This document shows positions 3,540-57,684 of a DNA stretch of 64,000 nucleotides, piece by piece. The position numbers were made by a program, and so were the translations under genes. How positions within the stretch are numbered: the stretch's first letter is position 1; each line of letters opens with the position of its first letter. The DNA is taken from the NCBI GenBank assembly GCA_963715865.1, contig OY970280.1:160001-224000 (forward strand), given 5' to 3'. Below the pieces are notes generated by a model. That model made no database searches and had not been told where the DNA came from. It was given only the letters and a program-made list of their open reading frames with translations. The stretch is from Candidatus Bathyarchaeota archaeon (lineage in GTDB: Archaea; Thermoproteota; Bathyarchaeia; Bathyarchaeales; Bathycorpusculaceae).

Positions 3540-4049
3540 CTATTTTTTCTGTTTCTTTCTCTTTCGTCTGAGTTTGTCAACAATGTCAGCTTGTTCGGTA
3601 GGGAAATAGTATGGCACGGTACCATAGGAACTAGGAGAGACTCCTCGTGATTTCCTTTTTAGTTTTCTTTTACCTCTCCTCTTCGCAATACGTTCTTTGA
3701 TTTTCACTGTCAATGCGTTTGAAATCAGCTGATTCAATTTTTCCACGAGTTTCTCAGCATCTTCTTTGCGTTCAAGCGGAATGACAATATTCCGATGATG
3801 AGGGAGGCTTACATTGATTTTTCCGGTCTCGTCCATATGCACAGAATCTATGTCGCTTACGCGAATGTGCAACGGAACAAATATGCCAAATATCCTGCCA
3901 ATCGTTTCTTTGAGAACTGGTTTATTTTCTAGTGCTTCTTCGATTTCGTTCTTGAAACTTCCTTTCAAGTCTATTTTGAGTAGATCATTGTAGAGTCTAA
4001 TTGTGAAATGGGGATTCTCAACTTCCAGAACTATGATTGTTCTAGGCAT
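3540..4049 (-). CDS. Hypothetical protein with basic C-terminus (duplicate of 53395..53904)
   Basis: 169 aa ORF; near-identical second copy supports coding status. Confidence 0.75.
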   Translation of the reverse strand: MPRTIIVLEVENPHFTIRLYNDLLKIDLKGSFKNEIEEALENKPVLKETIGRIFGIFVPLHIRVSDIDSVHMDETGKINVSLPHHRNIVIPLERKEDAEKLVEKLNQLISNALTVKIKERIAKRRGKRKLKRKSRGVSPSSYGTVPYYFPTEQADIVDKLRRKRKKQKK

Positions 4050-4320
4050 TCTATGTCCTACCTATTAAGCGTGCTAACAGATGGACATTGAAGATTTTAT
4101 ACTTACCTTCTCGTGTTGCGTCAACCAAACTAAACTTCTTTAAAAATCGTTAGGGGTCGTCTGAGTTAAGACAAATACAGTGTTGGAAGTACGCAGCTCT
4201 TGCCTTGTTTAGCAAGAGGCAATTCACTTAGGTAGTTTCAGCGGAGTCACGCTTTTCAGCTTGCTTTATGACGCTGACTAGCTTTCAAAAACTAGCACAG
4301 CCAGAAAACCTTGATTGGAC

Positions 4321-5010
4321 TTAATAGTATTGCTTCAATGGGTTTCGTGGGTCCGTCGCCAACTTTACAGACGACGGGACCACAACGCTGGGCCAATCCG
4401 CTTCGAGTCTGCGTTCCTCGACTTCGTCAACATTGACGCGGTGTATGTGAAGAGCATATTCCATCGCTTGGTCCTGCGGGTTCTCAAGTTGAAGCATCTG
4501 CTTAAGGCTTAAGTGTTCAAAGACTCGCCTAATCGGGCGCATTGAGTTGCCATGGCACGAGATAGCCACATTACCCGTCTTCTGTTGAAGCCACCTTTCA
4601 AGCTGCACGACAAAGGGCAAAGTGCGGCTCTCAACCATTTTCATGCTTTCACCTTCAGGGGGCGGAAAATCGTAACCGCGGTGAACTTTGGCAAACCACT
4701 CGGGTTTTTCGGCTGCAATCTCGATCTTGCTTTTGCCCTGCAACGTACCATAACAACGTTCTATCAGGCGGTCGTCCATGAAAACAGGAACGTTAAGGTG
4801 CGGTTTTAGGACAATTTCAAGGGTTCTTTTGGCTCTCAAAAGGTGTGATGTAAATGCGTAGTCAATTTTTTCTTGTTCCAGCTGTTGAGCAATCTCCTGC
4901 GCCTGTAAGACTCCTTTTGGAGTAAGGTCTGGGTCGCGCCAGCCTGAGAATATTTGGTGGCTGTTATCGGTAGTCTCAGCGTGTCTAAAGACGAACAGAT
5001 TACAGATCAT
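4321..5010 (-). CDS. gpmA: Cofactor-dependent phosphoglycerate mutase (histidine phosphatase family)
   Basis: FRHAET, FSGWRDPDLT, LIERCYG, PPEGES, CHGNSMR. Confidence 0.85.
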   Translation of the reverse strand: MICNLFVFRHAETTDNSHQIFSGWRDPDLTPKGVLQAQEIAQQLEQEKIDYAFTSHLLRAKRTLEIVLKPHLNVPVFMDDRLIERCYGTLQGKSKIEIAAEKPEWFAKVHRGYDFPPPEGESMKMVESRTLPFVVQLERWLQQKTGNVAISCHGNSMRPIRRVFEHLSLKQMLQLENPQDQAMEYALHIHRVNVDEVEERRLEADWPSVVVPSSVKLATDPRNPLKQYY

Positions 5011-5041
5011 AATCTATTTTCACCAAAAAAATGTTCAGCCC

Positions 5042-6418
5042 TCAGGAAGACGCAAATTCTCTCAACTCTTTTATTTTATGTATCTCTATTGAGTTGCTGG
5101 CATGTTCCATTGTGGTTCTCATAGCCTCAGTGAACAAGACAGTTTCTTCATCATCCAATAGTTGCATTTCATGAAGTTGGTTTGCAACTGCAGATATTCG
5201 GTCTTTTTCTTCGCGGTAGTTTATCAGAACGGGGTACACGCCGAACGTGAGTTCCAGTTGTTTTTTGACTTTGATTTCAGGAGTGACAGCAATTATCGGC
5301 TGTGCAATCTTGAAGCGAGCTATCATTCGGGCCGTGTAGCCTGATCGCGTCAAAGGGATAACTTTGTGAACCGGCATACTTTGACATATTCTCTGGATTG
5401 CCCTGCTCACCGTGTCAGAAATGTTGATAAACGGAGTTTCTTCAACGTTGCTCTTGACGGCTTTCTCTGTTTCATTCGCTATACGAGTCATCATCTCAAC
5501 GGCATCCACAGGATACTGACCAACCGCTGTTTCTCCAGAAAGCATAACAGCGTCTGACCCGTCTAGTATAGCGTTTGCAATATCGCTGACTTCAGCCCTG
5601 GTTGGACTTGGTTGATGAATCATCGATTCAAGCATCTCTGTCGCAGTGACAACAAGCTTACCCTTCTGATTGCATAATTTGATGAGGGATTTCTGAACCA
5701 AAGGCACTCTTTCAGGTTCGATTTCAACGCCCAAGTCGCCTCTTGCAACCATTAATCCACTAGCGGCTTCTAAAATCCCTTCGACGTTTTGAACACCCTC
5801 AAAGTTCTCAATCTTTGCGATTATTCCGCCTGCAAAACCATTGGTCTGAGACAAGTTTTTCACGTCTTCTGCATTCCTTGTGAATGAAAGCGCAACGTAT
5901 TCGACGTCATGTTTTTCTGCAAACCTTATGATCTCCAAGTCCTTCTCAGGGAAAGTTGGAACTGAAAGATGCTTATTGGGAATGTTAACGCCTTTTCCAT
6001 CTTCTATTACGCCGCTGTCCAAGGTCAGAAGCCGAAGTTTTTGATCTTTCTTTTCAATTACTCGTGTTCTAATCTTTCCATTATCGATATATACTTCGTC
6101 ATCAACCTCCATTTCGTCATAGAAATCGTGATTGAAACAGACTTCTTCTCCGTCGAAGCCTACTTCCAAAATGTCTCCTTTACTGAAGACCTTTCGTTGA
6201 GATGCCCTGATTCTAATTTCTGGTCCTTTGATGTCAATTATTATGGGGATATCCGCAATTTCCCGTACTGTTTCTATAACCGACTGGTATTGAGCGAGAT
6301 TTCCATAAGCGGTATTTATTCTTGCGCCGTTCATGCCCGCTTGGAACATTTTTTCAATCGTTTGCTTTGAAGAGCTGGCGGGACCCACAGTGCATATTAT
6401 CTTTGTTTTCTTCAACAA
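5042..6418 (-). CDS. pyk: Pyruvate kinase
   Basis: KTKIICTVGPAS, DIKGPEIR, IAKIEN, MVARGDLGVE, ATEMLESM, PTRAEVSD, MLSGETA. Confidence 0.97.
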   Translation of the reverse strand: MLKKTKIICTVGPASSSKQTIEKMFQAGMNGARINTAYGNLAQYQSVIETVREIADIPIIIDIKGPEIRIRASQRKVFSKGDILEVGFDGEEVCFNHDFYDEMEVDDEVYIDNGKIRTRVIEKKDQKLRLLTLDSGVIEDGKGVNIPNKHLSVPTFPEKDLEIIRFAEKHDVEYVALSFTRNAEDVKNLSQTNGFAGGIIAKIENFEGVQNVEGILEAASGLMVARGDLGVEIEPERVPLVQKSLIKLCNQKGKLVVTATEMLESMIHQPSPTRAEVSDIANAILDGSDAVMLSGETAVGQYPVDAVEMMTRIANETEKAVKSNVEETPFINISDTVSRAIQRICQSMPVHKVIPLTRSGYTARMIARFKIAQPIIAVTPEIKVKKQLELTFGVYPVLINYREEKDRISAVANQLHEMQLLDDEETVLFTEAMRTTMEHASNSIEIHKIKELREFASS

Positions 6419-20147: not shown

Positions 20148-21161
20148 TTAAACAACGTTCTGTGGGTTTCCCGAAATGAAAGCAGCTATGTTTTGCACAG
20201 TTGTTTCGAGTATTCTTTCAAGCGCCTCTTGGCTGTAAAAAGCTATGTGCGGCGTGAAAACAACGTTATCTTTATCCAGGAGAACGTGTTCCCTAACAAA
20301 ACTGGTCAAGACCTCAAGGTTTTTCGGCTCATGCAGTAGCTGTTTTTCCTCTTTGATGAGTTCCTCCCCCTCCACGACGTCGAGTCCTGCGCCGGCCAGT
20401 ATCTTCTTGTCGAGAGCCTCGATCAACGCTTCAGTGTCCACGATGCTTCCCCTTGAAGTGTTTATCAGAATGGCGCCTTTCTTTACAAGCTTGAATGTAT
20501 CTTTGTTCATAAGATGATGCGTGGCTTTAATGTAGGGCACATGCAGCGTAATTACGTCTGATCTAGCTAAAAGGTCCTCCAGCGAAACATATTCAAACCC
20601 CAAGACCTCAGACAGGAGTCTGTTTTGACGAATGTCATAGGCTACAACGTTCATGCCAAAACCTTTTGCAATCCTGATGACGTGCAAGCCGATTTGACCA
20701 GTTCCGATGACGCCTATGGTTTTTCCTTTCAAGTCGAACCCCTTTAATCCCTCTATTGAGAAGTCATGTTCAAAGCGTCTAATGCAGGCCTTACAGATGT
20801 TTCTTGACAAGGACAAAATCAAAGCAAAAGTGTGCTCGGCAACAGTGTTCTCCCCGTAGGAAGGAACGTTGCAGACGGTGAGCCCCCTTTTTTTGCATGC
20901 TTCTATGTCAATATGGTCAAATCCAGCAGATCTTGTAACTACCAATTTTAGTCCGGGAATTTCCTGAATGGTTTGTCCATCAACCTTGGAATAAACGAAA
21001 ACTGAAACCGCATCAAAATCCTTGATTTGTTGAGCATTTTCTGAGTTGAGTGCTTCTTTTGAGAATTTTAAGAAGTAACCTTTCAGCTTATTTTCTAAAT
21101 ACTTTTCTTCCCAGTCGTCAACCTCGAAAAACGCTATTCTCATTGTTCCATCACCTAACAT
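20148..21161 (-). CDS. D-2-hydroxyacid dehydrogenase, D-lactate dehydrogenase-like
   Basis: RSAGFDHID, NVPSYG, VAEH, GVIGTGQIG, ITLHVP, INTSRG, TPHIAFYS. Confidence 0.9.
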   Translation of the reverse strand: MLGDGTMRIAFFEVDDWEEKYLENKLKGYFLKFSKEALNSENAQQIKDFDAVSVFVYSKVDGQTIQEIPGLKLVVTRSAGFDHIDIEACKKRGLTVCNVPSYGENTVAEHTFALILSLSRNICKACIRRFEHDFSIEGLKGFDLKGKTIGVIGTGQIGLHVIRIAKGFGMNVVAYDIRQNRLLSEVLGFEYVSLEDLLARSDVITLHVPYIKATHHLMNKDTFKLVKKGAILINTSRGSIVDTEALIEALDKKILAGAGLDVVEGEELIKEEKQLLHEPKNLEVLTSFVREHVLLDKDNVVFTPHIAFYSQEALERILETTVQNIAAFISGNPQNVV

Positions 21162-37420: not shown

Positions 37421-37475
37421 TTCTAAATTGGCAGTTTAAAAGTTAAGCTTTGTCATTTAAGGTTCTGAAAGATTT

Positions 37476-37501
37476 TGGTGGGGTGGCCGAGATTTAAACC
37501 C
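37476..37501 (-). other. tRNA 3'-end remnant (att-like; Pro/Trp-like acceptor, identity uncertain)
   Basis: Minus strand gggtttaaatctcggccaccccacca: T loop, T stem, acceptor strand, CCA; no 5' half nearby. Confidence 0.6.
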
Positions 37502-37588
37502 AAACGGGTTCAAGCCGCGTTTTCAGAAAAGCGAATTTCCCTTCTAAATTATATACAGAAGGAGGTATGGCAGAAACCGCGGAACTGG

Positions 37589-41808: not shown

Positions 41809-42618
41809 CTACCTGCAATGGTTTTTCAGAGACGGCCAATCCGTTTTCTTAACAACAAGCTTGCCCTTCTGATTGCACAGTTTGATTAGGGATTTCTGGA
41901 CTAAAGGCACTTTTTCAGGTTCAATTTCAACTGCCAAATCGCCCCTTGCAACCATTAGTCCGCTAGCGGCATCTAAAATCTCTTCGACGTTTTGGACACC
42001 CTCAGAGTTCTCTATCTTGGCGATTATTCCACCTCCAAAACTATTGGTCTGAGACAAGTTTTTCAAGTCTCTTGCGTTTCGTGCGAAGGAAAGGGCAACG
42101 TATTCGATGTCTTGTTTTTTTGCAAACTTGATGATCTCCAAGTCTTTCTCTGTGAAAGTTGGAACGGAAAGATGCTTGTTAGGAATGTTAACTCCTTTTC
42201 CGTCTTCTATGACGCCGCCGTCCAAGGTTAGAAGCCGAAGTTTTCGATCTTTCTTTTCAACTACCCGTGTTCTAATTTTTCCATTGTCAATGTATACTTC
42301 GTCTTCAACATCCATTTCATCATAGAAATCATGATTGAAGCTGACTTCACCGTCGAAGCCTATTTCCAAAATGTCTCCTTTACTGAAGACCTTTTGTTGA
42401 GTTGCCCTGATTCTGATTTCTGGTCCTTTGATGTCAATTATTATTGGGATATCCGCAACTTCTCGCACTGTCTCTATAACAGATTGATATTGAGCGAGAT
42501 TTCCATAAGCGGTGTTTATCCTTACGCCGTTCATGCCCGCTTGGAACATTTTTTCAATCACTTGCTTTGAAGAGCTAGCTGGACCCACAGTGCATATGAT
42601 CTTTGTTTTCTTCAACAA
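41809..42618 (-). pseudogene. pyk: Truncated second pyruvate kinase (C-terminal ~200 aa missing)
   Basis: Nearly identical to 5042..6418 up to GKLVV (~41852), then unrelated; upstream cacattccaagttaaggttaacggc is shared. Confidence 0.9.
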
Positions 42619-43331: not shown

Positions 43332-44336
43332 GTGGAAAAGATGAAAATAGCGTTTTTCGAAGTAGAAGACTGGGAGGAAGAATACCTCAAAAAGAAGCTG
43401 AACGGTCACGTGCTTAAGTTCTCAACTGAAAAACTAAGTTTGGAAAAAACCTCAGAAATAAAAGATTTTGATGCTGTTTCAGTCTTCATCTACTCTAAAA
43501 TAGACGCGCAAATCATTCGTGAAATTCCAGATTTGAAATTAATAACCACAAGGTCCACCGGCTTTGACCATATCGATATAGAAACATGCAAGAAACAGGG
43601 GATCATAATCTGCAATGTTCCTTCATACGGGGAGAACACTGTTGCTGAGCACACGTTTGCTTTGATTTTGTCTTTGTCGAGAAACATGTGCAAGGCATGC
43701 ATTAGACGTTTTGAACAAGATTTCTCAATAGAGGGGTTAGAGGGGTTCGACTTAAAAGGAAAAACCATAGGTGTCATCGGAACAGGTCAAATCGGCTTGC
43801 ACGTCATAAGGATTGCAAAAGGCTTCGGCATGAACGTTGTAGCATATGACGTCCGCCCAAACAAACTCCTATCTGAGGTCTTAGGTTTTGAATATGTTAC
43901 GCTGGAGGACCTTTTAGCTATATCAGACGTAATTACGCTACACGTACCCTACATGAAAGCCACTCATCACCTCATGAACAAAGATACATTCAAACTTGTA
44001 AAGAAAGGCGCCATTCTGATAAACACTGCAAGAGGCAGCATCGTAGACACAGAAGCATTAATCGATGCCCTTGACAAGAAAATTTTGTCCGGCGCTGGAC
44101 TCGACGTCTTTGAAGGTGAAGAAGTTATAAAAGAGGAAAAACAACTTTTATACGACCCTAAAAATCTCGAAGTCTTAACCAGCCTAGTTAAGGATCACAT
44201 TCTGCTAAGCAAAAACAACGTCGTTTTTACTCCTCACATAGCTTTCTACAGCAAAGAAGCCCTAGAAAGAATACTTGAAACAACGGTAGAAAACATAGTT
44301 GCCTTCGTTTCGGGGAACCCACAGAATGTTGTTTGA
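43332..44336 (+). CDS. D-2-hydroxyacid dehydrogenase, D-LDH-like (paralog of 20148..21161)
   Basis: RSTGFDHID, GVIGTGQIG, INTARG, TPHIAFYS. Confidence 0.9.
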   Translation: MEKMKIAFFEVEDWEEEYLKKKLNGHVLKFSTEKLSLEKTSEIKDFDAVSVFIYSKIDAQIIREIPDLKLITTRSTGFDHIDIETCKKQGIIICNVPSYGENTVAEHTFALILSLSRNMCKACIRRFEQDFSIEGLEGFDLKGKTIGVIGTGQIGLHVIRIAKGFGMNVVAYDVRPNKLLSEVLGFEYVTLEDLLAISDVITLHVPYMKATHHLMNKDTFKLVKKGAILINTARGSIVDTEALIDALDKKILSGAGLDVFEGEEVIKEEKQLLYDPKNLEVLTSLVKDHILLSKNNVVFTPHIAFYSKEALERILETTVENIVAFVSGNPQNVV

Positions 44337-44467: not shown

Positions 44468-45040
44468 GTGGTAAATAAAATGGAACACGAAAATCACAAT
44501 ATGCATTCTGGAATGGAACATAAAATGCCTGACCAAACCATGCAGGGAATGAAACATGGATCCTCAGGACATATGATGCACACTGGAATGTTCAAAAAAA
44601 GATTTTTTATTTGCCTCGCGCTTACTATTCCAGTTCTGCTTTTTTCAGAAACCATTCAAACATGGTTTCATTTCACAATTACCACACCCTATCAAACGTG
44701 CATTCTTCTAGTTTTAGCCACAATCATTTACGTCTATGGCGGTTGGCCCTTCTTAAAAGGGCTAACGGAAGAACTGAGAAAGCTTCAGCCGGGAATGATG
44801 ACGCTTATAGGCACGGCAATATCGGTGGCTTTTTTCTTTTCAGCGGCAACCGTGTTTTTCCCTGTTGGAAACGACTTCTTCTGGGAACTCGCAACCCTAA
44901 TTGATGTAATGCCCACAGAGCGACAAATGAAACATATGCTTAAGAAGACAGGTTTTGGAAGAATACATGTAACGGATAAGCCTATACTTTACCTTTGTGT
45001 ATCTACCAAGCTTAAGGGTATGATAATTAAAGTTAGTTAG
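44468..45040 (+). pseudogene. N-terminal fragment of a CopB-type (P1B-3) Cu ATPase fused to an unrelated tail
   Basis: His/Met-rich N-terminus, GGWPFLKG, PGMMTLI, FFWELATLIDVM; stops before the catalytic domains. Confidence 0.85.
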
Positions 45041-46353
45041 GTAGCGGGCTTTATCTTTTGCTCTCTAAGTTCTTCAGCAGTGTACTCTCTAATTATGCCA
45101 TGGATGCCCTTGCTTATTATCCACGTAAAGACATAGGATAATACAAAAACTGTAACGAGAACTACTGGTATAGCAAGCAATTGCAGCCCAAGTTGATGCA
45201 CGGCTTGCATTCCACCACCAAATAATAGACCATTTGGTAGACCAGAGCCGCCTCCAAAAGAAGCGTATGAATACTGCGAAAAGAACGCAACCATAATAAA
45301 ACCAAATATACCACCAAGAAAGTGACCTGGAAAAAGACCAACTGGATCAGTAAACCATTTGGCTCTTTGAAATAATTTCTCGCCTAAAATGAATACAATT
45401 GAGCCTAATATTCCAAGAATTACTGCGCTACCTGGACCAACGTAACCGGCGACAGGAGTAATCACGATTAAACCGATGAGTATACCGTTTGCAGCATACA
45501 TTATACTAGGCATTTTTCTTATTTCAAGGTACTTGAAAAACATGGTAAATAAGAAGCCAGTTGAAGCAGCCAAGAAAGTGATCAAAACCACAATGTAGGA
45601 TTGGATATTTAGCGCTAATGTGCTTCCTGGATTGAAACCAAACCAGCCGAGCCAAAGCAGAAGAATTGACAAGGCTATCCATGGCGTGTTTGGCTTAGGC
45701 AGCACTTGTGGGCTTTCACGGAATCCTTTCTTTTTTTCCTCTTGCCAAACTCTTAAAACAATGGCTAAGCCTGCTGCCCCTGCAGCTCCATGAACAACCA
45801 ATCCGCCTGCAAAATCTCTTACGCCCATCACGTAGAGCCATCCTTGCGGGTTCCATATCCAAGCAGCTGGCAATGCCCAAATGAGGATGAAGTAGGGAAT
45901 TGAATAAAGAAAGAAAGCTTCCAGCTTCATTTTTCTTAAAAAAATTACGCCAACTAACGCAAGGGTTACTGTAGCGAAAGCTGTTTCAAAGAAAAAATAA
46001 GAAGGAAGAGTAACTAGATTGTCAAAATATTTAGGACCCATTGACCACCAAACTTGCGTAAATATATCCGCAGAATTGCTTTGGAAACCACCCATGAACG
46101 GGAAATTATAGAGTGGATTGCCCATTAAGCCCCCGCCGATTGTGGGTGCAAAGGCAACGCTAAAGCCGAGAAATGCCATGAAAAAGAAGCCTGAGCATGA
46201 TATCATAATGTTCTTCATTAAGGCTCTATTGGAACCTTTGCCAAGTTCTCCTCTCTCCAGTATTCCAACTGAAATGGTCATTAGGAAAACAAGGACGCCG
46301 CATATCAAAACCCAAAGGTTATTGAAGAGATTTTCTGCTGGAAGAGAAGACAT
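45037..46353 (-). CDS. amt: Ammonium transporter (Amt)
   Basis: FFETAFA, DFAGGLVVH, WLGWFGFNPGS, DPVGLFPGH (twin His). Confidence 0.93.
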   Translation of the reverse strand: MSSLPAENLFNNLWVLICGVLVFLMTISVGILERGELGKGSNRALMKNIMISCSGFFFMAFLGFSVAFAPTIGGGLMGNPLYNFPFMGGFQSNSADIFTQVWWSMGPKYFDNLVTLPSYFFFETAFATVTLALVGVIFLRKMKLEAFFLYSIPYFILIWALPAAWIWNPQGWLYVMGVRDFAGGLVVHGAAGAAGLAIVLRVWQEEKKKGFRESPQVLPKPNTPWIALSILLLWLGWFGFNPGSTLALNIQSYIVVLITFLAASTGFLFTMFFKYLEIRKMPSIMYAANGILIGLIVITPVAGYVGPGSAVILGILGSIVFILGEKLFQRAKWFTDPVGLFPGHFLGGIFGFIMVAFFSQYSYASFGGGSGLPNGLLFGGGMQAVHQLGLQLLAIPVVLVTVFVLSYVFTWIISKGIHGIIREYTAEELREQKIKPAT

Positions 46354-46384
46354 ATCGACATCACTCCACTAAGCTAATCAGGTA

Positions 46385-47533
46385 CTATAGTAGTACCATT
46401 GCAAAATGATTGATTAACGGCATAAGCACTGGAGCACCGCCACTTGCTAAAATAACTATTTGCGCTGGAGCTATTGAAGGAAAAACGTGTGCGCTCAACT
46501 CTATAAGCCAAGCAGTGAACACAAACGGTCCAGTTAAGGTTGGCAGATTGAAACGTCCTGTTATTGTTCCCATGAAAGCCGTCACTATAGTCGAGAAAGC
46601 CGTGGCGAAAAGCATGACTAAGAAGTTAATTGGTGCGCCATTGAAGGGACTTATTGGCCAGAGGAATCCAACAAAGACCCCCATGACGGCCAAGGCTGTT
46701 AAGGTTCCGTTAAAACCGTACAGCCCAATTAGGACAGAGGATCTATCAGCTTTGAAAGCAATCGCGGCTAAGGTTGCAGAAAGAGTACCTATGAATGCTG
46801 TGATTCCAGCAAAGTATATTGGATATTGCACTGGGAACCCATAAGGGTTTAATGGAATAGTGGCGACAGTTAATCCAATGAAAATTAAAACTCCTGTCTT
46901 CCAGTTTTCCTGAAAGAATACTTGAGCGATGCCTGTAAAGACCAATTTTACAAAGCCACCCGCTGTGAATTCACTTAATCGCAGGGGCTCTTTTTTCTCT
47001 GTGTCTTGAGGATTTTTAAGTAATGTGCTTCTTTGTTTTGGCGCAGGCGGAGGTCCAGCCAACTTCATGTTGGAAAACTTGTGAGCTGCAAACAGGAAAA
47101 TCCAAGTTGTTAGTACAAATGCTGAAGTTTCAACAGGAAGGCCAAAAATTTTAGTGAACCAAATTAACGAGGCAGTAATAAAACCAGTTATAAGAGCGCC
47201 TATAACGGCTGCGGTTGTTGCTGATCTTCCTTTCTCAAGGAATGTATCGCCTAAGGCAATAGCCGTTAAAACCGAGTTAAACCCAAATATTCCATAAGTT
47301 AGCGCATTGTCAGGCGAAGACAAAGAAACTGGAACCAACTCTATGCCTAGAGCTAAACCAACCAAACTACCTGCTATTGACCCAATGACAGCAAAGGCAG
47401 CCGCCCTTTTTGAGTTAATAGCAAGAGCAATTACAAAGATAATTCCAACTAAAGGTGAACCCATAAAGAAAACTTGCGCAACTCCATTAAGAATAAAATT
47501 TATGGTTCCTGAAATTGGATCCAAAAAAATCAC
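46385..47533 (-). CDS. UT-family urea transporter
   Basis: Duplicated motif GVAQVFF...GIFGFNSVL / GIAQVFF...GLYGFNGTL. Confidence 0.9.
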
Positions 47534-47560
47534 TCACTAGAAAAAATTGTGGCAAGCAAG

Positions 47561-47604
47561 TTTATAGTTTTGTTGTTGTCTTTGCACAACAACATAGTTT
47601 TAAA
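47561..47604. promoter_or_regulatory. Divergent promoter with a perfect 9-6-9 palindrome between two TATA boxes
   Basis: tttatag(47561)...tgttgttgt-ctttgc-acaacaaca (47571..47594)...ttttaaa(47598). Confidence 0.7.
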
Positions 47605-47653
47605 CCTCTTTCTGAAAATTTGTCTAGTGCTGTTTTTAAATAGGGTGAAAAAA

Positions 47654-47977
47654 ATGAAGTTAGTAGCGCGTGAAGTAGAAAAAATGATGATTTTCACTGC
47701 TGCACAAATGGCTGAGAGAAGACGTAAAGACGGGCTAAAACTGAATTATCCTGAATCGGTTGCAATCATAGCTGATTTTGTTCAAGAAGGAGCTAGAAGA
47801 GGCGTAATGGTAGCTAAAATAGCCAAAGATGCTAGGCATGTTTTGACGATGGATGACGTGATGCCCAACGTAGCGGATATGATAACTTTGGTGCAGGTAG
47901 AGGCAACATTTCCAGACGGAACCAAACTAGTAAGCGTACATAACCCAATCCAACCAAAGGAGGAAGACAAAAAATGA
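47654..47977 (+). CDS. ureA: Urease gamma subunit
   Basis: [38 protein letters not shown]; RBS agggtga. Confidence 0.97.
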
Positions 47978-48351
47978 CCCCAAACACAGTAGGCCAAATA
48001 ACCCTTGGACAAGGAGACATAGAGGCATTCCAAAATAGAAAATCAATTAAATTGAAAGTAAAAAATACTGGTGACAGGGGAATCCAAGTAGGTTCGCACT
48101 TCCACTTTTTTGAGGCGAACAGGGCATTAGAATTCGAGAGAGAAAAGGCATATGGCATGAAACTCGCCATTCCATCAGGCACGAGCGTAAGATTTGAACC
48201 AGGCCAAGAAAAAGAAGTCACGCTTGTCGAATACGGAGGCAAAAAATACGTTCATGGATTCAACAACCTCGTCGACGGTAGCGTACGGACCATATACCGA
48301 AAAGATATGGCACTTAGAAAAGCCAAGGAACTAAAATTCAAAGGAGCGTGA
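47974..48351 (+). CDS. ureB: Urease beta subunit
   Basis: [28 protein letters not shown]. Confidence 0.97.
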
Positions 48352-50072
48352 AAAAAATGAAAATTCCAAGAAAACAATATTTAGACTTGTATGGCCCCAC
48401 AAAAGGCGATAAAATCCAATTAGCAGACACAAACTTGGTCATTGAAGTAGAAAAGGATTGTACGTCTTTCGGCGATGAGTTGGTCTTCGGCGGTGGAAAG
48501 AGCGCTAGACAAGGAATGGGTTTATCGGATGGCACCACACAGGCAGATGGAGCTCTTGACCATGTTATCACCAACGTTGTAGTGTTGGATGCAATATTGG
48601 GTGTTGTAAAAGCTGACATAGGCATTAGAAACGGGATTATCGCTGGAATTGGAAAGTCTGGAAATCCAAACACGATGGATAACGTCACTGAAAACTTGGT
48701 GGTAAGTAACTCCACCGAAATAACCGCTGGAGAAGGACTGATAGCTACCGCTGGCTTCTTTGATACACATGTACACATGATATCTCCACAGCAAGTATTC
48801 CATGCCATAGGAAACGGCATTACAACATACGTTGGTGGAGGCACAGGACCTGCCGACGGAACAAACGCGACCACCTGCACACCAGGACCTTGGAACATGA
48901 GAAAAATGATTGAAGCAATTGAAGGATTACCCATCAACTGGCTAATCTTGGGTAAAGCTAACGATAGCAGAAAAGAAACGTTAGTTGAAGAACTTGCCGC
49001 AGGCGCTGGAGGATTTAAAATGCATGAAGACTGGGGCGCGACTAGGGCATCTTTGGACACCGGTTTAAGTGTTGCAGACGAATATGACGTTCAAATAGCG
49101 ATACACACGGATTCACTCAACGAGGGAGGCTATGTTGACGATACTATAGACGCGATAGATGGAAGGACTGTACACACCTATCATACAGAAGGCGCAGGAG
49201 GAGGACATGCTCCAGATATAATGAAAATAGCTGGAGAACCAAACGCATTACCATCCTCAACAAACCCAACAAGACCATACACCGTCAATACCATAGATGA
49301 ACATCTCGACATGGTCATGGTAACCCACCACCTTAACCCAAAAGTTCCAGAAGACGTCGCCTTTGCCGAATCAAGAATCAGAGCCGAAACCATAGCCGCG
49401 GAAGATGTATTCCATGATTGGGGCATTCTTAGCATGTATTCAGCTGATAGCCAAGCAATGGGCAGAACAGGAGAAGTTTCAACCAGATGCTGGCAGACTG
49501 CACACAAAATGAAAGCACAGTTTGGCAAACTACCTGAAGACGCCCCCGGAAATGACAACTTTAGAGTTTTGAGATACTTAGCCAAGCTTAACATAAATCC
49601 AGCAATAACCAACGGCGTTTCCGATTACGTAGGCAGTCTTGAAAAAGGAAAAATGGCTGACATAGTACTATGGGACCCAAGATTCTTTGGGGCAAAGCCA
49701 AACATAGTTTTCAAGGGAGGCTTCATAGCCTACGCAATGATGGGCGACCCCAATGCTTCAGTTCCACCAGTCGAGCCGATATTTTTCAGACCAATGTTTG
49801 GGGGATTCGGTTTAGCAAGATTGACAACATCGGCACTATTCACATCAAAATTAGCAATTGAAAATGGCATCAAAGAGAAATACGGCATACAACGCCAAGT
49901 TCTACCGGTACACAACGTCAGAAACTTAGGCAAACAGCACATGATACGGAATAGCACACTCGGCGAAATAAAGATTGATCCTGAAACCTACAAGGTCACT
50001 TTCAACGGTAAGATGGTAACGTGTGAACCTGCAAAGGAATTGCCATTAACTCAGCTCTATCATCTAGTATAG
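48348..50072 (+). CDS. ureC: Urease alpha (catalytic) subunit
   Basis: [46 protein letters not shown]. Confidence 0.98.
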
Positions 50073-50109
50073 ATGCTGAGTCTTCCATCCTTTTTTTGGA
50101 GCGCTTGAT

Positions 50110-50442
50110 TTGATTAGACATTTTACATTAATTTCTAATGTGAAAAACGGAGAGGTAATTGACCCCAAAAAAGTTAAGCATGGAGAAGTTACCGCTCTTA
50201 AAATTTCAAATCTTTCCGGTTGGATTGATCAACAAACCCATTTAAATTTAGATTTTCCCAAACATCTGATGCGAGAAGTGTACATAGCAGAGAACTTAGA
50301 CATCGGCAGCAAGGTAATACTTGAGGACGAAAGGTTTATGACAGCTCTTGTGAATCCTCTAGCATACAAGCATTTTGGCTTTGTTGATGAAGCCGAAAGA
50401 GCAGAACAGCTTAAAGAAGCTATTTTGAATAAAGGTAAATAA
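50110..50442 (+). CDS. Uncharacterised protein inside the urease operon (orfX)
   Basis: 110 aa ORF filling the gap between ureC and ureE; no recognised motif. Confidence 0.65.
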   Translation: MIRHFTLISNVKNGEVIDPKKVKHGEVTALKISNLSGWIDQQTHLNLDFPKHLMREVYIAENLDIGSKVILEDERFMTALVNPLAYKHFGFVDEAERAEQLKEAILNKGK

Positions 50443-50457
50443 AAAGAGACGGCTATT

Positions 50458-50937
50458 ATGATTCTTTTCGAAAAATTAGCAAGTCAAATCAACGTCGAAA
50501 AGACTAAAGAAGTCACAACTAATAGGCAAGATGCAATGAGAGGTAGAGTAAGAACTAAGTTAAGCGACGGAGAAGACCTAATAATTAATTTACCGAGAGG
50601 CCAATCTATAGGGCAAGGTGACATTTTCGGGCCTTCAGAAAAAGGAGACTATTATAAAATATTGATCGAACCTGAACTTGTAATAAAGGTGACTTTAGAC
50701 GAAACACAAAGCAATAATCTTCTAGAAAAAGCAGTAAAATTAGGTTACAATTTAGGTAATCGGCATCTTGAGGTTTTGATAGAAGATGACGCTGTATTTG
50801 TTCCAGTTACGATAGGAGAAGTAAAGGTCAGGAAAATACTGGAATCCATGAAGTTGCCAATTAGCTTCGAATCGGTTCAAAAGGTAATATCAACATCGTC
50901 AGCAGGATATCATCCAGGAGAACTGGAAGAGGAATAA
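50458..50937 (+). CDS. ureE: Urease accessory protein UreE
   Basis: RGRVRTKLSDGEDLII.LPRG, LGYNLGNRHL; no poly-His tail. Confidence 0.9.
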   Translation: MILFEKLASQINVEKTKEVTTNRQDAMRGRVRTKLSDGEDLIINLPRGQSIGQGDIFGPSEKGDYYKILIEPELVIKVTLDETQSNNLLEKAVKLGYNLGNRHLEVLIEDDAVFVPVTIGEVKVRKILESMKLPISFESVQKVISTSSAGYHPGELEEE

Positions 50938-50939
50938 TT

Positions 50940-51608
50940 TTGACTGAAAACGAGAAAATTTTAAATCTACTAAGAATGTCTGATTCATTTTTCCCGATGG
51001 GCTCATTCACCATGTCACAAGGCATGGAACAGATAATAAATGACAATTTGTTACCTAAAGAAAAAGTTGCCAAAACTATAAACATTTACATGGATAAGGT
51101 TTGGAAAACATTCGACCTTGGCATTTTCTACAAAGCGCTAGAAGCAGTCGAAAAGGGAGATATTGAATTACTAAAAAAAATCGATAAAATTTGTTATTGT
51201 TCTAAAGTTACTGAAGAAAATAGGTCAGCCATCGTTAAGATGGGAAGAGGCATGATGAACGCGACGGAATTTAATGATGATTCGATAGGAAAAGCCTACA
51301 AAGACCTAATCAAGGCTGATGCGGCTTATGGAACATACCCAGTTGTTTTAGCGCTTGCTTCAATTCAGTTTAGCTATAAAGATTTAGGTGGTTTATCGCT
51401 TTTGTACGTTAACCTGATGGAAGTCACTGCTTCTTTAGTGAGAATGGGCATAATCGATTACATAGAAGCCCAAAAGATTCTGAGTAACGCTGTAACATCA
51501 ATTCAGGTAAAGCCTCTAAAGTTAACTGATTTACACCAATCTTTTCCATTAGCTGACATCGCCTCGATGAGGCACGAGTTAAGTCCGAGCAGAATGTTCA
51601 TGAGTTAA
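50940..51608 (+). CDS. ureF: Urease accessory protein UreF
   Basis: SDSFFPMGSFTMSQGMEQ, DIASMRHE, RMFMS. Confidence 0.92.
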   Translation: MTENEKILNLLRMSDSFFPMGSFTMSQGMEQIINDNLLPKEKVAKTINIYMDKVWKTFDLGIFYKALEAVEKGDIELLKKIDKICYCSKVTEENRSAIVKMGRGMMNATEFNDDSIGKAYKDLIKADAAYGTYPVVLALASIQFSYKDLGGLSLLYVNLMEVTASLVRMGIIDYIEAQKILSNAVTSIQVKPLKLTDLHQSFPLADIASMRHELSPSRMFMS

Positions 51609-51624
51609 AAAAGGAGACTATGAA

Positions 51625-52269
51625 ATGAGTAGAACCGTTAGAATTGGAATAGGCGGCGCAATAGGCTGCGGAAAAACCCAACTAATTGAGAAACTAGTCC
51701 CAAAGCTAGTTGAGCAAGGCTTCAAGGTTGGAGCAATATCAAACGATGTTTACTCCAAAGAAGACGCTCGACGACTTGCAGCAAGACTTGGCAAAAACAT
51801 AGATCCAAATCTCATTGTAGGAATAGAAACAGGAGGATGCCCACATACTGCCGTGAGAGATGACCCTTCAATGAACATTGACGCAGCCGAGCATCTGGAG
51901 AAAGAAAATCCAGGCTTAGATCTCATCTTAATAGAATCTGGCGGAGACAACATAACCCTAACTTTTAGTCCAAAATTGGCAGACTTCTTCATCTATATGG
52001 TAGACGTTGCGGGAGGAGACAAAACGATAAGGAAAGGGGGGTTAGGAATTAAAAAAGCCGATTTATTATTGATCAACAAAATAGACTTGGCTCCTTACGT
52101 TGAATCTACGATCCTAGAATCAGGCGTGAAGACAGCCAACCTTGACCTTATGATGCAAGATGCAAAGAAACTAAGAGGCGACAAACCCACTGTCTTGCTG
52201 TCTCTAAAAGATGGGACAGGAGTAGATGAAGTGGTAAAAATAATAAGAGAAAAGGCGCTGTTCAAATGA
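51625..52269 (+). CDS. ureG: Urease accessory GTPase UreG
   Basis: GGAIGCGKT, ETGGCPH, ESGGDN, NKIDL. Confidence 0.96.
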   Translation: MSRTVRIGIGGAIGCGKTQLIEKLVPKLVEQGFKVGAISNDVYSKEDARRLAARLGKNIDPNLIVGIETGGCPHTAVRDDPSMNIDAAEHLEKENPGLDLILIESGGDNITLTFSPKLADFFIYMVDVAGGDKTIRKGGLGIKKADLLLINKIDLAPYVESTILESGVKTANLDLMMQDAKKLRGDKPTVLLSLKDGTGVDEVVKIIREKALFK

Positions 52270-53174
52270 CTCAGGACGTCGTTCAAGACTTGATTCAAGA
52301 TTTAAGCGGTTTACCATCAGCTTTCGCGGATTATGAAGCAGAACAAACAAGACTTGCCGTTGGGTCTCCAGGCAAAAATGCTGTTGCTGACTTGACATTC
52401 ACGAAATTTGGCGATAAAACATATCTTACTGATATTTATAATGAACTCCCAGCAAAAATTCTCAGAGAACTCTATTATGATCCCTACCTGCCGGGTTTGC
52501 CATACATTCTTTTCATGAATCCAACCGGTGGAATAGTGCAAGGAGACCGTTATTTTTACAAAATACAATTAAAAGAAGGCGCAGAAGCATTCATCACCGA
52601 TACAACGGCCACAAAAGTATACAAAATGGATTTGAACTATGCCAGCAAACAAGTAGACGTTTATCTTGGAAAAAACAGTCGATTGGAGTTTCTGCCAAGG
52701 GAAACTATGGTATTTGTTGATTCCAGATGGTATCAAAGAGTAACGTTTCATGTTAACGATGGGTCAAAACTTTTGTATTGTGAAATATTCTGTCCTGGTA
52801 GAGTAGCCAGGGGAGAATTTTGGGACTTTGAAATTTATTCTTCAAAGGTAGTTATTCAAGAGGACAAAAAGCTCATGCTTAATGAAAGCACAACGTTCAC
52901 AAAGCAGGACAAAGATTTACTCGACGTTATATTCGGTGATAACAAGTTTTACCTGAAAGCATACTGGTACTCCGACAACGCTGTTAACACCAAGAAAGAA
53001 ATTGATTTTCGAAATACTTATGGCGGGGCTACACAAATGGCCAATAATAGGGGTCTCATCATTAAGGCGCTTTCAAACGATTTAAATGACCTACAGCAAC
53101 TTCAAGGTGAAATCTGGAAAATTTTCCGAAAAACCGAGACAGGGATGGAAGTTCCCTTACTTCGGATGTATTGA
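52266..53174 (+). CDS. ureD: Urease accessory protein UreD
   Basis: MNPTGGIVQGD, TATKVYKM, PGRVARGE. Confidence 0.93.
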   Translation: MTQDVVQDLIQDLSGLPSAFADYEAEQTRLAVGSPGKNAVADLTFTKFGDKTYLTDIYNELPAKILRELYYDPYLPGLPYILFMNPTGGIVQGDRYFYKIQLKEGAEAFITDTTATKVYKMDLNYASKQVDVYLGKNSRLEFLPRETMVFVDSRWYQRVTFHVNDGSKLLYCEIFCPGRVARGEFWDFEIYSSKVVIQEDKKLMLNESTTFTKQDKDLLDVIFGDNKFYLKAYWYSDNAVNTKKEIDFRNTYGGATQMANNRGLIIKALSNDLNDLQQLQGEIWKIFRKTETGMEVPLLRMY

Positions 53175-53394
53175 TTTTCGTTTGCATGCGGCTGACGACG
53201 CCAATACATTAATTAGAAATTAATTAAAAAAGCTAAAGATAGGAAAACTACACTTTGAAACTGGTGTACCAATTCCGTCAATCCAAAACTGGAGCGCTAT
53301 TCTAAGATTATTATAAGTATTATTACCGTAACAGCTCTGAACCCTATATATGTTAAAAAAATAAATTCAAAGAAAGAGACTATTTTGCTTTAGC

Positions 53395-53904
53395 CTAATT
53401 TTTTCTGTTTTTTCTCTTTCGTCTAAGCTTGTCAACGATGTCAGCTTGTTCGGTAGGGAAGTAGTATGGCACCGTTCCATAGGAACTTGGAGAGACTCTT
53501 CTTGATTTCCTTTTTAGCTTCCTTTTAGCTCGCTTTGCCGCAATACTTTCTTTGATTTTCACTGTCAGAGCGTTTGAAATCAGCTGATTCATTTTTTCCA
53601 CGAGTTTCTCAGCATCTTCTTTACATTCAAGCGGAATGACAATATTCCGGTGATGAGGGAGGCTTACAGTAATTTTTCCGGTCTCGTCTAAATGTACCGA
53701 ATCTATGTCGCTTACGCGAATGTGCAACGGAACAAATATGCCAAGCATCCTACCGATTGTTTCTTTGAGAACTGGTTTATTTTCTAGTGCTTCTTCGATT
53801 TCGTTCTTGAAACTTCCTTTCAAGTCAATTTTTAGGAGATCATCGTAGAGCCTAATTGTGAAATGGGGATTGTCAACTTCCAAAACTATAGTCGTTCTAG
53901 GCAT
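53395..53904 (-). CDS. Hypothetical protein, duplicate of 3540..4049
   Basis: Near-identical 169 aa sequence; upstream promoter region also conserved. Confidence 0.75.
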   Translation of the reverse strand: MPRTTIVLEVDNPHFTIRLYDDLLKIDLKGSFKNEIEEALENKPVLKETIGRMLGIFVPLHIRVSDIDSVHLDETGKITVSLPHHRNIVIPLECKEDAEKLVEKMNQLISNALTVKIKESIAAKRAKRKLKRKSRRVSPSSYGTVPYYFPTEQADIVDKLRRKRKNRKN

Positions 53905-56146: not shown

Positions 56147-56325
56147 GTAACTTTCCATATCGAGAAGACTTTGAAAGATGGGCAAGAGATACACTTGGAG
56201 ACCCTGTCTTGGCTTTCAGGTTAAGCATCAGAGGAAGAACCACTTTGAGAGGAGAAGCCTTAAGAGAGTTTATTATCAAGCAAGTAAGAGCTCGATTTGA
56301 CGAGTTCAAGGTTAATATTCCTTAA
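56147..56325 (+). pseudogene. Third DUF5752-like remnant
   Basis: VTFH, frameshift, then EDFERWARDTLGDPVLAFRL...LRGEALREFI. Confidence 0.6.
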
Positions 56326-56350
56326 CTGATTATTATCTTGATAGAGCTTA

Positions 56351-57607
56351 ATGAGAACTGATATTTTTAGAGAGCAAATGGAAACTCTCTCAGAGCAGCG
56401 ATCTTTTGCTGAAGATTTTGTTCTGCCTGACTATCAAAGGCTTAGTGTTAAGAATATTTTGCCTCAAATTGGAGCAATTTTTGGTATAGGCTCTCTTGGC
56501 TCACTCAGTTTTCCTAGTGATTATTTTGGTGATTTTCAAGACATCGAGAAGGTTGTTTTGCTTATTTTCGATGGGTTGGGGTTCAACCGTTTTCTGCATC
56601 ATATAGAAAGCCATAATGGAACTTTCCTAGAGTTGGCTGAGAAAGGTATTCTTAAGCCTTTGACCACAGTTTTTCCCTCAACTACTTCAACTGTTTTAGC
56701 AAGCATTTTCACCGGTCTATCGCCTGCTCAACATCAAATAATAGGCTATCACATGTTCTCTAAAAAATACGGCTTGGTTTTCGATACTTTAGATATGAGG
56801 CCAGTTTACGGTTACAGTGGCCAAGTTGAATTAGCTAAAGACTACTCAAACAGCGTCAAGCCTTGGCTACCTATTTTAGAGCAAAATGGCGTAAAAACGT
56901 TAGTTGCAACTAAAGCATCTATTGCAGGAAGCGGCTTGTCTCAGGTTATACATAAAGACCTAAAGTTGATACCCTACCTGTTGGGCTCTGACATGTTCAT
57001 GCAATCAAGCAAAGCACTTGAAAAGCAAGGTCCAACTTTGCTTATTATGTACTATAGTGGCGTTGATACTCTTGCGCATAGATATGGACCATACTCAGAA
57101 GAGGTAACTTTTGAATTAACCTCAATAGAACACAATCTAAGGAACTTTGTTAGCAATCTCTCGGAGAAGACAAAGAAGGAAACGTTGATGCTCTTGGCGG
57201 CAGATCATGGAGTAGCGGAAACACGAAAAACGTACTTTCTAAAGGATGTTCATGAAGTGATGGCGCGACTGATGCTGCCTCCGGTTGGGGATAGTAGAGC
57301 AACTTTTCTGTTCTCAAAGCCCTATCAAAGAGATGCGCTCAGTGAAGCTTTCCGAAAGAACGTTGAAGGTTTCAAACTTTTCTCTTCTAATGAATTAATC
57401 GATAAGGATGCTTTCGGACAACCAACAAATCCCGAAGGGCTAAACGAAAAGGTTGGAGACTTTACGGCTTTAGGCATTAAGCACAACGCTTTGCAGTATC
57501 CTTTCTTTGAAGATGATAGAGTTCATCCACAGTTAGGCACGCATGGAGGCATGACAAGCGAAGAAATGATCATTCCCTTTTTATCGGTTAGACTTTCCAA
57601 GCTCTGA
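56351..57607 (+). CDS. Alkaline phosphatase superfamily protein (nucleotide pyrophosphatase/phosphodiesterase-like)
   Basis: IFDGLG, TVFPSTT, DTLAH, ADHG, GTHGG. Confidence 0.88.
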   Translation: MRTDIFREQMETLSEQRSFAEDFVLPDYQRLSVKNILPQIGAIFGIGSLGSLSFPSDYFGDFQDIEKVVLLIFDGLGFNRFLHHIESHNGTFLELAEKGILKPLTTVFPSTTSTVLASIFTGLSPAQHQIIGYHMFSKKYGLVFDTLDMRPVYGYSGQVELAKDYSNSVKPWLPILEQNGVKTLVATKASIAGSGLSQVIHKDLKLIPYLLGSDMFMQSSKALEKQGPTLLIMYYSGVDTLAHRYGPYSEEVTFELTSIEHNLRNFVSNLSEKTKKETLMLLAADHGVAETRKTYFLKDVHEVMARLMLPPVGDSRATFLFSKPYQRDALSEAFRKNVEGFKLFSSNELIDKDAFGQPTNPEGLNEKVGDFTALGIKHNALQYPFFEDDRVHPQLGTHGGMTSEEMIIPFLSVRLSKL

Positions 57608-57684
57608 CTTAAGCCAGATTAAATCAGCAGTCCATGCAGGCCTTCCGGCATGAGCGTTTTTTGCGGTAATTGCATTTAAGCTTT

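What the first reader, a model, noticed from the sequence alone, without database searches (positions are those of the whole stretch)
45037..53174. Complete urea-utilisation island in a probable anaerobic, Bathyarchaeia-like archaeon
ureABC-X-EFGD with all Ni ligands intact is transcribed divergently from a UT-family urea channel and Amt. Archaeal ureases are best known from ammonia oxidisers, haloarchaea and some Sulfolobales. The EFGD order matches Bacillus, Staphylococcus and Yersinia. It is fully intact amid decayed neighbours, implying current selection; no Ni transporter was seen in the window.
Basis: partly seen in the sequence, partly recalled or inferred. Interest (0 to 1): 0.8.

Follow-up and report, generated by a model that had tools for sequence, protein, structure and literature searches.

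The report
Urease module in peat Bathyarchaeia genome
An anaerobic peat archaeon of the class Bathyarchaeia carries an intact gene set for taking up urea and splitting it into ammonia; the enzyme is ordinary, but it is rare in this group, is closest to the ureases of ammonia-oxidising archaea, and includes one conserved small gene of unknown function.

Summary
Window 45037-53174 holds amt and a UT-family urea channel on the minus strand. They diverge from ureA-ureB-ureC-X-ureE-ureF-ureG-ureD on the plus strand. All nickel and catalytic residues of UreC are present, and so are the UreG and UreE motifs.

The host is a complete 2.35 Mb Bathyarchaeia genome. It has acetyl-CoA synthase but no terminal oxidase and no amoA. 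A NiCoT permease and a CbiM gene lie elsewhere in the genome.

The 8.1 kb block is a discrete module. DNA homology to congeners starts and stops at its ends, and the flanks differ. It occurs in about 6 of 41 species of the genus and 11 of 401 sampled Bathyarchaeia. All ten genes are under purifying selection (dN/dS 0.03-0.20). Near-identical pieces occur in peat and soil RNA libraries.

Two further results:
- UreC forms one supported clade with the ureases of ammonia-oxidising archaea.
- ORF-X belongs to a small unannotated family. All eight distant members examined lie inside urease clusters, between ureC and ureE or ureF.

The most likely role is urea-nitrogen scavenging; acid buffering is the main rival. 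This is a new member of a known kind, of moderate interest.

The parts
45037..46353 (-). amt, ammonium transporter (438 aa), downstream of the UT gene in the same transcription direction
   Evidence: PF00909 at 213 bits. It is below the TIGR00836 cut-off. It is conserved at 82-95% aa in L004-L007. dN/dS is 0.07-0.12.
46385..47533 (-). UT-family urea channel (382 aa), two homologous halves joined by a Pro/Lys-rich linker
   Evidence: PF03253 at 186 bits. It matches solved urea transporters at E 1e-28 to 1e-31. It is below the Yut equivalog cut-off. It is collinear with the UTs of AOA and other Bathyarchaeia.
47534..47653 (.). Divergent control region with two TATA-like boxes and the palindrome GTTGTTGT-N6-ACAACAAC at 47572-47593
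   Evidence: Sequence. In an alignment of eight congeners the arms change but stay complementary, and the adjacent CATAGTTTTAAAC is conserved. A regulatory role is inferred.
47654..47977 (+). ureA, urease gamma subunit (107 aa); corrected start
   Evidence: PF00547 at 136 bits. Relatives have stop codons upstream of MKL.
47974..48351 (+). ureB, urease beta subunit (125 aa)
   Evidence: PF00699 at 146 bits. dN/dS is 0.04.
48348..50072 (+). ureC, urease alpha (catalytic) subunit (574 aa)
   Evidence: TIGR01792 at 893 bits, over the cut-off of 680. The best solved match is 4z42 at E 6e-236. All Ni and catalytic residues are invariant.
50110..50442 (+). ORF-X (110 aa, TTG start), member of an unannotated family linked to urease clusters
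   Evidence: No Pfam, NCBIfam or PDB match. Invariant residues are K21, H24, S36, D40, H44, N46, D48 and H52, with a near-invariant N-terminal MIRH. dN/dS is 0.10-0.20. Eight of eight distant relatives lie in urease clusters.
50458..50937 (+). ureE, nickel metallochaperone (159 aa), GNRH motif present, no His-rich tail
   Evidence: UreE_N and UreE_C. Sequence.
50940..51608 (+). ureF (222 aa)
   Evidence: PF01730 at 62.5 bits.
51625..52269 (+). ureG, GTPase (214 aa) with P-loop GCGKT, CPH and NKID motifs
   Evidence: TIGR00101 at 216.9 bits, over the cut-off of 204.2. Sequence.
52266..53174 (+). ureD (302 aa)
   Evidence: PF01774 at 145 bits.

Best explanation
This is a functional nickel-urease module of an obligately anaerobic peat Bathyarchaeia archaeon. 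Proposed mechanism: two back-to-back promoters share a palindromic operator. One drives UT-amt, which takes up urea and ammonium. The other drives ureABC-X-EFGD. UreD, UreF, UreG and UreE, probably helped by X, load nickel into apo-urease. The nickel is imported by the NiCoT or CbiM systems encoded elsewhere. Urease then hydrolyses cytoplasmic urea to two NH3 and CO2, and the ammonia is assimilated by glutamine synthetase. The module is an accessory trait that is kept or exchanged as one block within the genus. It shares ancestry with the urease clusters of ammonia-oxidising archaea. Shown: gene content, catalytic residues, purifying selection, the module's borders, its phylogenetic position, and its presence in RNA libraries. 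Inferred: enzyme activity, co-regulation, the role in nitrogen assimilation, and any role of X.
For: The gene set is complete and every defining residue is present. dN/dS is 0.03-0.20 for all ten genes against four congeners. The same ten-gene layout occurs in L004-L007, G028, G009, G021, G001 and G062, and homology stops at window positions 45029-45047 and 53172-53178. In four metatranscriptome libraries, contigs 90-100% identical cover ureB, ureC, ureG, ureD, amt and UT. One 191-nt contig has no differences, and 11 contigs in run X27 are at least 99% alike. The genome has NicO and CbiM, glutamine synthetase and ACS. It has no terminal oxidase and no amoA (positive control). Pairing amt with the urea channel under a shared control region fits joint nitrogen scavenging (inference). 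The island's GC content equals that of its flanks.
Against: No activity or protein data exist. DNA carry-over cannot be excluded for the contigs from RNA libraries, and those runs were chosen by their ureC content. No PII/glnK gene or known nitrogen-regulator box is in the module. The window also encodes a P-type H+-ATPase and a Na+/H+ exchanger, which is compatible with a role in pH homeostasis instead. Published genomic work treats Bathyarchaeota as urea producers (PMC7110647), and the genome has one arginase/agmatinase-family gene, so the substrate could be internal.
Confidence: 0.78

Rival explanations
1. The module serves mainly in acid tolerance. Urea enters through UT, cytoplasmic ammonia consumes protons, and Amt lets NH3/NH4+ leave. 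This would work together with the H+-ATPase and cation/proton exchangers in acidic peat, as in Yersinia and Helicobacter.
For: The best DNA holder is a peat metagenome. The window encodes a P-type H+-ATPase, a Na+/H+ exchanger and a TrkA-N protein. The best solved match of UreC is the Yersinia enterocolitica enzyme. An earlier first-reader note (e1-5475193) proposed this reading.
Against: The margin over the Sporosarcina and Klebsiella enzymes is small. The UT is not a UreI-type acid-gated channel. Its nearest relatives are in AOA, where urease supplies substrate. Only about 6 of 41 congeners from similar habitats carry the module. Nothing in the sequence shows acid regulation.
Confidence: 0.15
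2. The module recycles internally produced urea, from arginine or agmatine catabolism, rather than external urea.
For: One arginase/agmatinase-family gene is present in the genome. Bathyarchaeota are reported to express urea-producing genes (PMC7110647).
Against: A dedicated urea channel is the gene most constantly linked to ureABC across Bathyarchaeia and AOA clusters. This argues for exchange of urea with the outside. Most congeners have no urease at all.
Confidence: 0.05
3. The placement is an artefact: the contig is chimeric at the island borders, or the module is inactive.
For: Homology to relatives stops exactly at the borders. Several neighbouring genes are truncated or duplicated. Junction reads were not examined.
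Against: The same module lies in at least five genomes of the same genus on long contigs. Both flanks are paralogues, 87-91% identical, of genes elsewhere in the same window. GC content is the same as in the flanks. All ten reading frames are open and under purifying selection.
Confidence: 0.02

Closest known systems
Urease clusters of deep-branching ammonia-oxidising archaea (amoA-positive genomes G402 and G424, and the MAG 'Nitrosopumilales archaeon AHI_AL_Thaum02')
   Same: A UT-family urea channel lies next to ureABC. A homologue of ORF-X (about 40% identity) precedes ureE-F-G-D. UreC falls in the same supported clade, 97/95.
   Different: The AOA clusters carry a thermosome-type chaperonin gene between ureC and X. 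They have no adjacent amt, and all genes run in one direction. Their hosts are aerobic ammonia oxidisers that use urea as an energy substrate, whereas this host has no amoA and no oxidase.
Bacterial three-subunit Ni-ureases with solved structures (Yersinia enterocolitica 4Z42, Sporosarcina pasteurii, Klebsiella aerogenes)
   Same: Gamma, beta and alpha subunits, identical metal-binding and catalytic residues, and the accessory order E-F-G-D. E-values are 1e-210 to 6e-236.
   Different: Identity is only about 57-61% to the nearest bacterial UreC sequences found. An extra gene X is present. UreE has no His-rich tail. The bacterial sequences fall outside the archaeal clade.
Actinobacillus pleuropneumoniae ureABC-ureX-ureEFGD (an unassigned ORF between ureC and ureE)
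   Same: An unassigned gene sits in the same position. This lead comes from note e1-5475202, and ureX is named in PMC3275570.
   Different: Homology between the two X genes could not be tested, because no sequence of the Actinobacillus gene was available. Context was examined for 8 of the 60 relatives found in 1.84 billion representatives, besides the Bathyarchaeia and AOA copies. Those 8 lie on metagenomic contigs of 38-73% GC.
Bacterial Yut / mammalian UT-A/UT-B urea channels
   Same: Pfam UT family, with two homologous five-helix halves.
   Different: The score is below the Yut equivalog cut-off. There is a long linker between the halves. Sequence profiles pair its N-half with the canonical C-half and its C-half with the canonical N-half, and this is unresolved.

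Membership tests
Nickel-dependent urease (UreABC, EC 3.5.1.5) | Gamma, beta and alpha subunits that score above the curated family cut-offs | tested here: met
   PF00547 at 136 bits, PF00699 at 146 bits and PF00449 at 166 bits. TIGR01792 at 893 bits against a cut-off of 680.
Nickel-dependent urease (UreABC, EC 3.5.1.5) | Binuclear Ni site (HxH, carbamylated Lys, two His, Asp) plus the catalytic His and Arg | tested here: met
   H141, H143, K224, H226, H253, H279, H327, R343 and D367 are invariant in alignment A2 and align to 4z42.
Nickel-dependent urease (UreABC, EC 3.5.1.5) | Maturation proteins UreD, UreE, UreF and UreG with the GTPase and metal motifs | tested here: met
   Pfam hits. UreG is over the TIGR00101 cut-off. 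P-loop, CPH and NKID are present in UreG, and GNRH in UreE.
Nickel-dependent urease (UreABC, EC 3.5.1.5) | Urea hydrolysis activity that depends on nickel | not testable with these tools
   This needs expression and an assay.
UT urea transporter family (PF03253) | Score above the Pfam cut-off and a two-repeat architecture | tested here: met
   186 bits against a cut-off of 25. Each half alone scores 94-104 bits.
Yut-type bacterial urea transporter (TIGR03441 equivalog) | Score above the equivalog cut-off | tested here: not met
   163 bits against a cut-off of 274.6.
Amt/AmtB ammonium transporter | Score above the family cut-off | tested here: met
   PF00909 at 213 bits against a cut-off of 23.2. 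The narrower TIGR00836 cut-off is not reached: 224.5 against 343.3.
Mobile genomic island | Integrase or transposase, tRNA target, terminal repeats, or deviating base composition | tested here: not met
   There is no tRNA in the window and no mobility gene in the flanks of the window or of L004-L007. No terminal repeats were found. GC is 0.411 against 0.412 and 0.432 in the flanks. Only the sharp, shared borders and the varying context are island-like.
AOA-type archaeal urease cluster | UreC in the Bathyarchaeia+AOA clade, an adjacent UT, and the X gene before ureE | tested here: met
   The clade has 97/95 support. UT and X homologues are present in G402, G424, L009 and G047.
AOA-type archaeal urease cluster | Thermosome-type chaperonin gene between ureC and X | tested here: not met
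   Only 37 nt separate ureC and X here. The chaperonin is present in L137, L138 and L152.
UreE (test of whether X is a divergent copy) | Profile similarity of X to UreE | tested here: not met
   hhalign probability is 0.2%.

The most novel reading that the evidence does not exclude
ORF-X is an unrecognised component of urease maturation, probably a nickel- or UreE-associated factor. It was ancestral to the archaeal (Bathyarchaeia plus AOA) urease cluster and is also present in some high-GC, probably bacterial, clusters. A linked reading is that the urease of ammonia-oxidising archaea, which published reconstructions say was acquired at the origin of that group, came from the same gene pool as the Bathyarchaeia module.
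Probability: 0.4. Interest if true: 0.65.

Novelty: new member of a known kind. Interest (0 to 1): 0.5.

Why it matters
[quoted passage not shown] Published genomic work treats them as urea producers. An intact, selected and probably expressed module for urea uptake and hydrolysis in some peat species means that part of the group can consume urea nitrogen without oxygen. That matters for nitrogen budgets of nitrogen-poor peatlands.

The clade shared with AOA ureases, together with the shared UT and X genes, gives a concrete comparison set for asking where AOA obtained their urease.

ORF-X is a cheap experimental target. The urease maturation pathway is a textbook system, and a conserved extra gene that is often translationally coupled to ureE has gone unannotated.

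Tried and rejected
ORF-X:
- Pfam and NCBIfam gave no hit.
- A profile search of PDB sequences gave no hit.
- The AlphaFold2 model (pLDDT 80.8) gave nothing significant: Foldseek on PDB found no match at E 0.001 or better, VIA-align wide reached at most Z 2.7, and the ESM Atlas reached at most TM 0.35.
- The ESM Atlas feature search found nothing.
- A search for longer, fused forms found none, which is weak evidence.
- Complex prediction of UreA+UreB+UreC with X returned no verdict, with a score of 0.00. This is not evidence either way.
- X as a divergent UreE was rejected by hhalign.

UT half-swap. Pfam, NCBIfam and PDB matches pair the N-half with the canonical C-half. However, BLAST of the halves against rhizobial UTs favours their C-half for both of our halves, and a tree of the halves is unresolved. 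I do not claim a permutation.

Mobility signatures. None were found.

DNA and RNA runs. The first run search listed no holder on record as RNA. Parts of the module without cover are not evidence of silence.

Literature. Searches for Bathyarchaeia or Bathyarchaeota with urease returned only incidental mentions. The library lacks most subscription journals, so a prior description cannot be excluded.

Empty site. I could not define an empty insertion site in congeners without urease, because the flanks are multi-copy paralogues.
Full report
**What is there.** ORF listing and Pfam/NCBIfam scans confirm ten genes at 45037-53174. On the minus strand are a UT-family urea channel (46385-47533) followed by an Amt ammonium transporter (45037-46353). 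On the plus strand are ureA, ureB, ureC, an unassigned 110-aa ORF (X, 50110-50442), ureE, ureF, ureG and ureD.

UreC scores 893 bits on TIGR01792 (cut-off 680). It aligns end to end with solved ureases, the best being 4z42 at E 6e-236. In a 42-sequence alignment the residues H141, H143, K224, H226, H253, H279, H327, R343 and D367 are invariant. They are the metal ligands and catalytic residues of the Klebsiella enzyme shifted by 7; that numbering is from my own knowledge.

UreG has the P-loop, CPH and NKID motifs. UreE has GNRH but no His-rich tail.

One correction to the coordinates: ureA begins at ATG 47654, because relatives carry stop codons upstream of MKL. The divergent intergenic region is therefore 120 bp.

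**Host.** The window is bases 160001-224000 of a single-contig genome of 2,354,843 bp, 97.9% complete, with an archaeal 16S rRNA gene.
- Proteins unrelated to urease (P-type H+-ATPase, catalase) have cluster mates at 90% identity or more that NCBI names Candidatus Bathyarchaeia archaeon.
- A genome of the same genus (G062) is the record named Candidatus Bathyarchaeota MFD02416.bin.1.252.
- The genome encodes CdhC/acetyl-CoA synthase.
- It has no haem-copper oxidase, no cytochrome bd oxidase and no archaeal amoA. The amoA search does find the gene in four AOA genomes.
- It has one NicO permease, one CbiM gene, glutamine synthetase and one arginase-family gene.

Nickel uptake is encoded, but not in the window.

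**Module and distribution.** A 20-kb DNA query against 40 congeners shows homology of 74-87% that begins at window 45046-45081 and ends at 53172-53178 in G028, G009, G021 and G062. In G001 the module runs into a contig end. The flanks match unrelated places.

BLAST against the named loci L004-L007 gives the same borders, 45029-45068 and 53172-53178. The ten-gene order is identical in those loci. Their flanking genes all differ:
- L004: an MIP channel and a cbb3-type oxidase.
- L006: a truncated NicO.
- L007: a CLC channel and an MFS transporter.

No integrase, tRNA, terminal repeat or GC deviation marks the block.

| Sample | Genomes with UreC |
|---|---|
| Genus | about 6 of 41 |
| Class Bathyarchaeia | 11 of 401 genomes, 6 of 131 genera; three have ureC split in two frames |
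| Phylum | 38 of 401, almost all in three groups of families |

The genome also holds a 186-bp relic of ureC, 81% identical, at about 672.6 kb. This points to repeated gain and loss.

**Selection and expression.** Nei-Gojobori estimates against four congeners give dN/dS of 0.03-0.20 for every gene, and 0.10-0.20 for X. All ten are therefore maintained coding genes. dS is mosaic along the block: UT is closest to L004, and amt is closest to L006. This indicates recombination among species.

The best DNA holder of the module is a peat metagenome. In four libraries labelled metatranscriptomic, from four studies, contigs 90-100% identical lie on ureB, ureC, ureG, ureD, amt and UT. One 191-nt contig has no differences, and 11 contigs in run X27 are at least 99% alike. 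This is compatible with expression in situ. DNA carry-over and the choice of runs by ureC limit its weight.

**Neighbours.** The pyruvate kinase at 41809-42618 is a truncated copy: residues 1-262, 87% identical to the intact gene at 5042-6418. The 2-hydroxyacid dehydrogenase at 43332-44336 and the 169-aa ORF at 53395-53904 are paralogues of genes at 20148-21161 and 3540-4049. The module therefore sits in a rearranged, duplicated region. 'Decayed neighbours' is only partly right, and some split genes may be assembly errors.

**Phylogeny.** I built a careful IQ-TREE of 47 UreC sequences. It places all eight Bathyarchaeia and all fifteen AOA sequences on one side of a branch with 97/95 support. 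On the other side are the nearest bacterial sequences found, three high-GC contigs that carry X, and a long-branched sequence from another archaeal family of the phylum.

Within the archaeal clade Bathyarchaeia are not monophyletic. This genus branches first under midpoint rooting, then G047. Two other Bathyarchaeia families group with the deep AOA lineages.

The root is not inferred, so direction cannot be read. Bacterial sampling was limited to the best matches of this query. Published reconstructions place acquisition of the urease set and a UT transporter at the AOA ancestor (PMC7554672; PMC7603488).

**ORF-X.** X has no Pfam, NCBIfam or PDB-sequence match. Its confident model (pLDDT 80.8) has no significant structural neighbour. 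It has 84 near relatives, all unnamed or called 'hypothetical protein'. It has only 60 relatives among 1.84 billion cluster representatives.

Invariant residues are K21, H24, S36, D40, H44, N46, D48 and H52. The N-terminal MIRH is nearly invariant.

I examined eight distant members, and all eight lie inside urease clusters. They sit after ureC, or after ureC plus a chaperonin, and before ureE or ureF. In four of them X overlaps the ureE start by 4-14 nt.

X is present in G047 and in the amoA-positive genomes G402 and G424. It was not found in the other 35 urease-positive genomes of the phylum sample. Some carriers have 60-73% GC and bacterial-type neighbours.

X is thus a conserved urease-cluster gene. 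A role in nickel delivery together with UreE is an inference from position and conserved His/Asp residues. Homology to the ureX gene of Actinobacillus pleuropneumoniae (PMC3275570) could not be tested.

**Function.** The most economical reading is urea-nitrogen scavenging. Urea and ammonium uptake genes and the urease genes share one control region, and glutamine synthetase is present. The conserved palindrome at 47572-47593, whose arms co-vary among congeners, is a candidate operator. Acid buffering in peat is a live alternative. The two roles are not exclusive.

**Verdict.** This is a standard nickel urease system in a lineage where I found no published description. It is rare within that lineage and is clearly maintained. 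The added value lies in the clade shared with AOA ureases and in the unannotated X family. I rate it a new member of a known kind, with an interest of about 0.5.

Noticed in passing
window:48504-48805 (-): Rfam 5_ureB_sRNA (RF02514) matches antisense to the 5' part of ureC, at 50.6 bits against a gathering score of 40. The Helicobacter sRNA is antisense to the homologous coding region. The hit is therefore most likely conservation of the coding sequence, not evidence of an sRNA here.
   Followed up: no
L002:1516-1701 (G000:C1 about 672.6 kb): A 186-bp relic of ureC (residues 79-149, 81% nt identity to the resident gene) lies far from the module. A 42-bp repeat that also occurs at window 37472-37513 is nearby. 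This suggests an earlier or second urease locus that was lost.
   Followed up: partly
window:46385-47533 (-): Pfam maps the UT N-half (residues 1-170) to profile positions 161-291 and the C-half to positions 2-139. The NCBIfam and PDB matches are consistent with this for the N-half. That suggests the two repeats may be in swapped order relative to canonical UTs. BLAST of the halves and a tree of the halves did not settle it.
   Followed up: partly
window:47572-47593: The palindrome GTTGTTGT-N6-ACAACAAC lies between the divergent promoters. In eight congeners the arms differ but remain complementary, and the adjacent CATAGTTTTAAAC is conserved.
   Followed up: partly
L004:14828-19608: In a congener (uncultured archaeon MFD02416.bin.1.263, 984-kb contig) ureD is followed directly by an MIP channel and by genes with FixO and cytochrome cbb3 subunit III domains. 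Some species of this genus may respire oxygen at low tension. The window's own genome has no COX1 hit.
   Followed up: no
L006:2862-3440: In the closest relative (fen_992) a truncated NicO nickel permease (profile positions 109-285 only) lies about 290 bp from the amt end of the module.
   Followed up: no
window:45037-53174 versus L004 and L006: dS is mosaic along the module. UT is much more diverged from L006 (dS 0.72) than its neighbours are (0.21-0.25), while amt is far more diverged from L004 (1.56) than UT is (0.47). This indicates recombination between species within the block.
   Followed up: partly
L137:8626-10176, L138:8793-10349, L152:3383-4918: The AOA urease clusters that carry X have a thermosome-type chaperonin (Cpn60_TCP1, about 515 aa) between ureC and X. 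The Bathyarchaeia module lacks it.
   Followed up: partly
window:41809-44336, 53395-53904, 3540-6418, 20148-21161: Both flanks of the module are paralogous copies of genes elsewhere in the window: a truncated pyruvate kinase, a 2-hydroxyacid dehydrogenase and a 169-aa ORF. Parts of the downstream flank (window 56158-57645) recur at G000:C1 870-875 kb.
   Followed up: partly
G000:C1:1191554-1192675: A second glutamine synthetase copy next to the intact one is split over three frames. It is either a pseudogene or the result of indel errors in the assembly. This matters for judging 'decayed' genes in this genome.
   Followed up: no
window:60097-62129: A catalase (626 bits) lies next to a divergently oriented Fur-family regulator, in a genome without terminal oxidases. 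This is probably an oxidative-stress unit.
   Followed up: no
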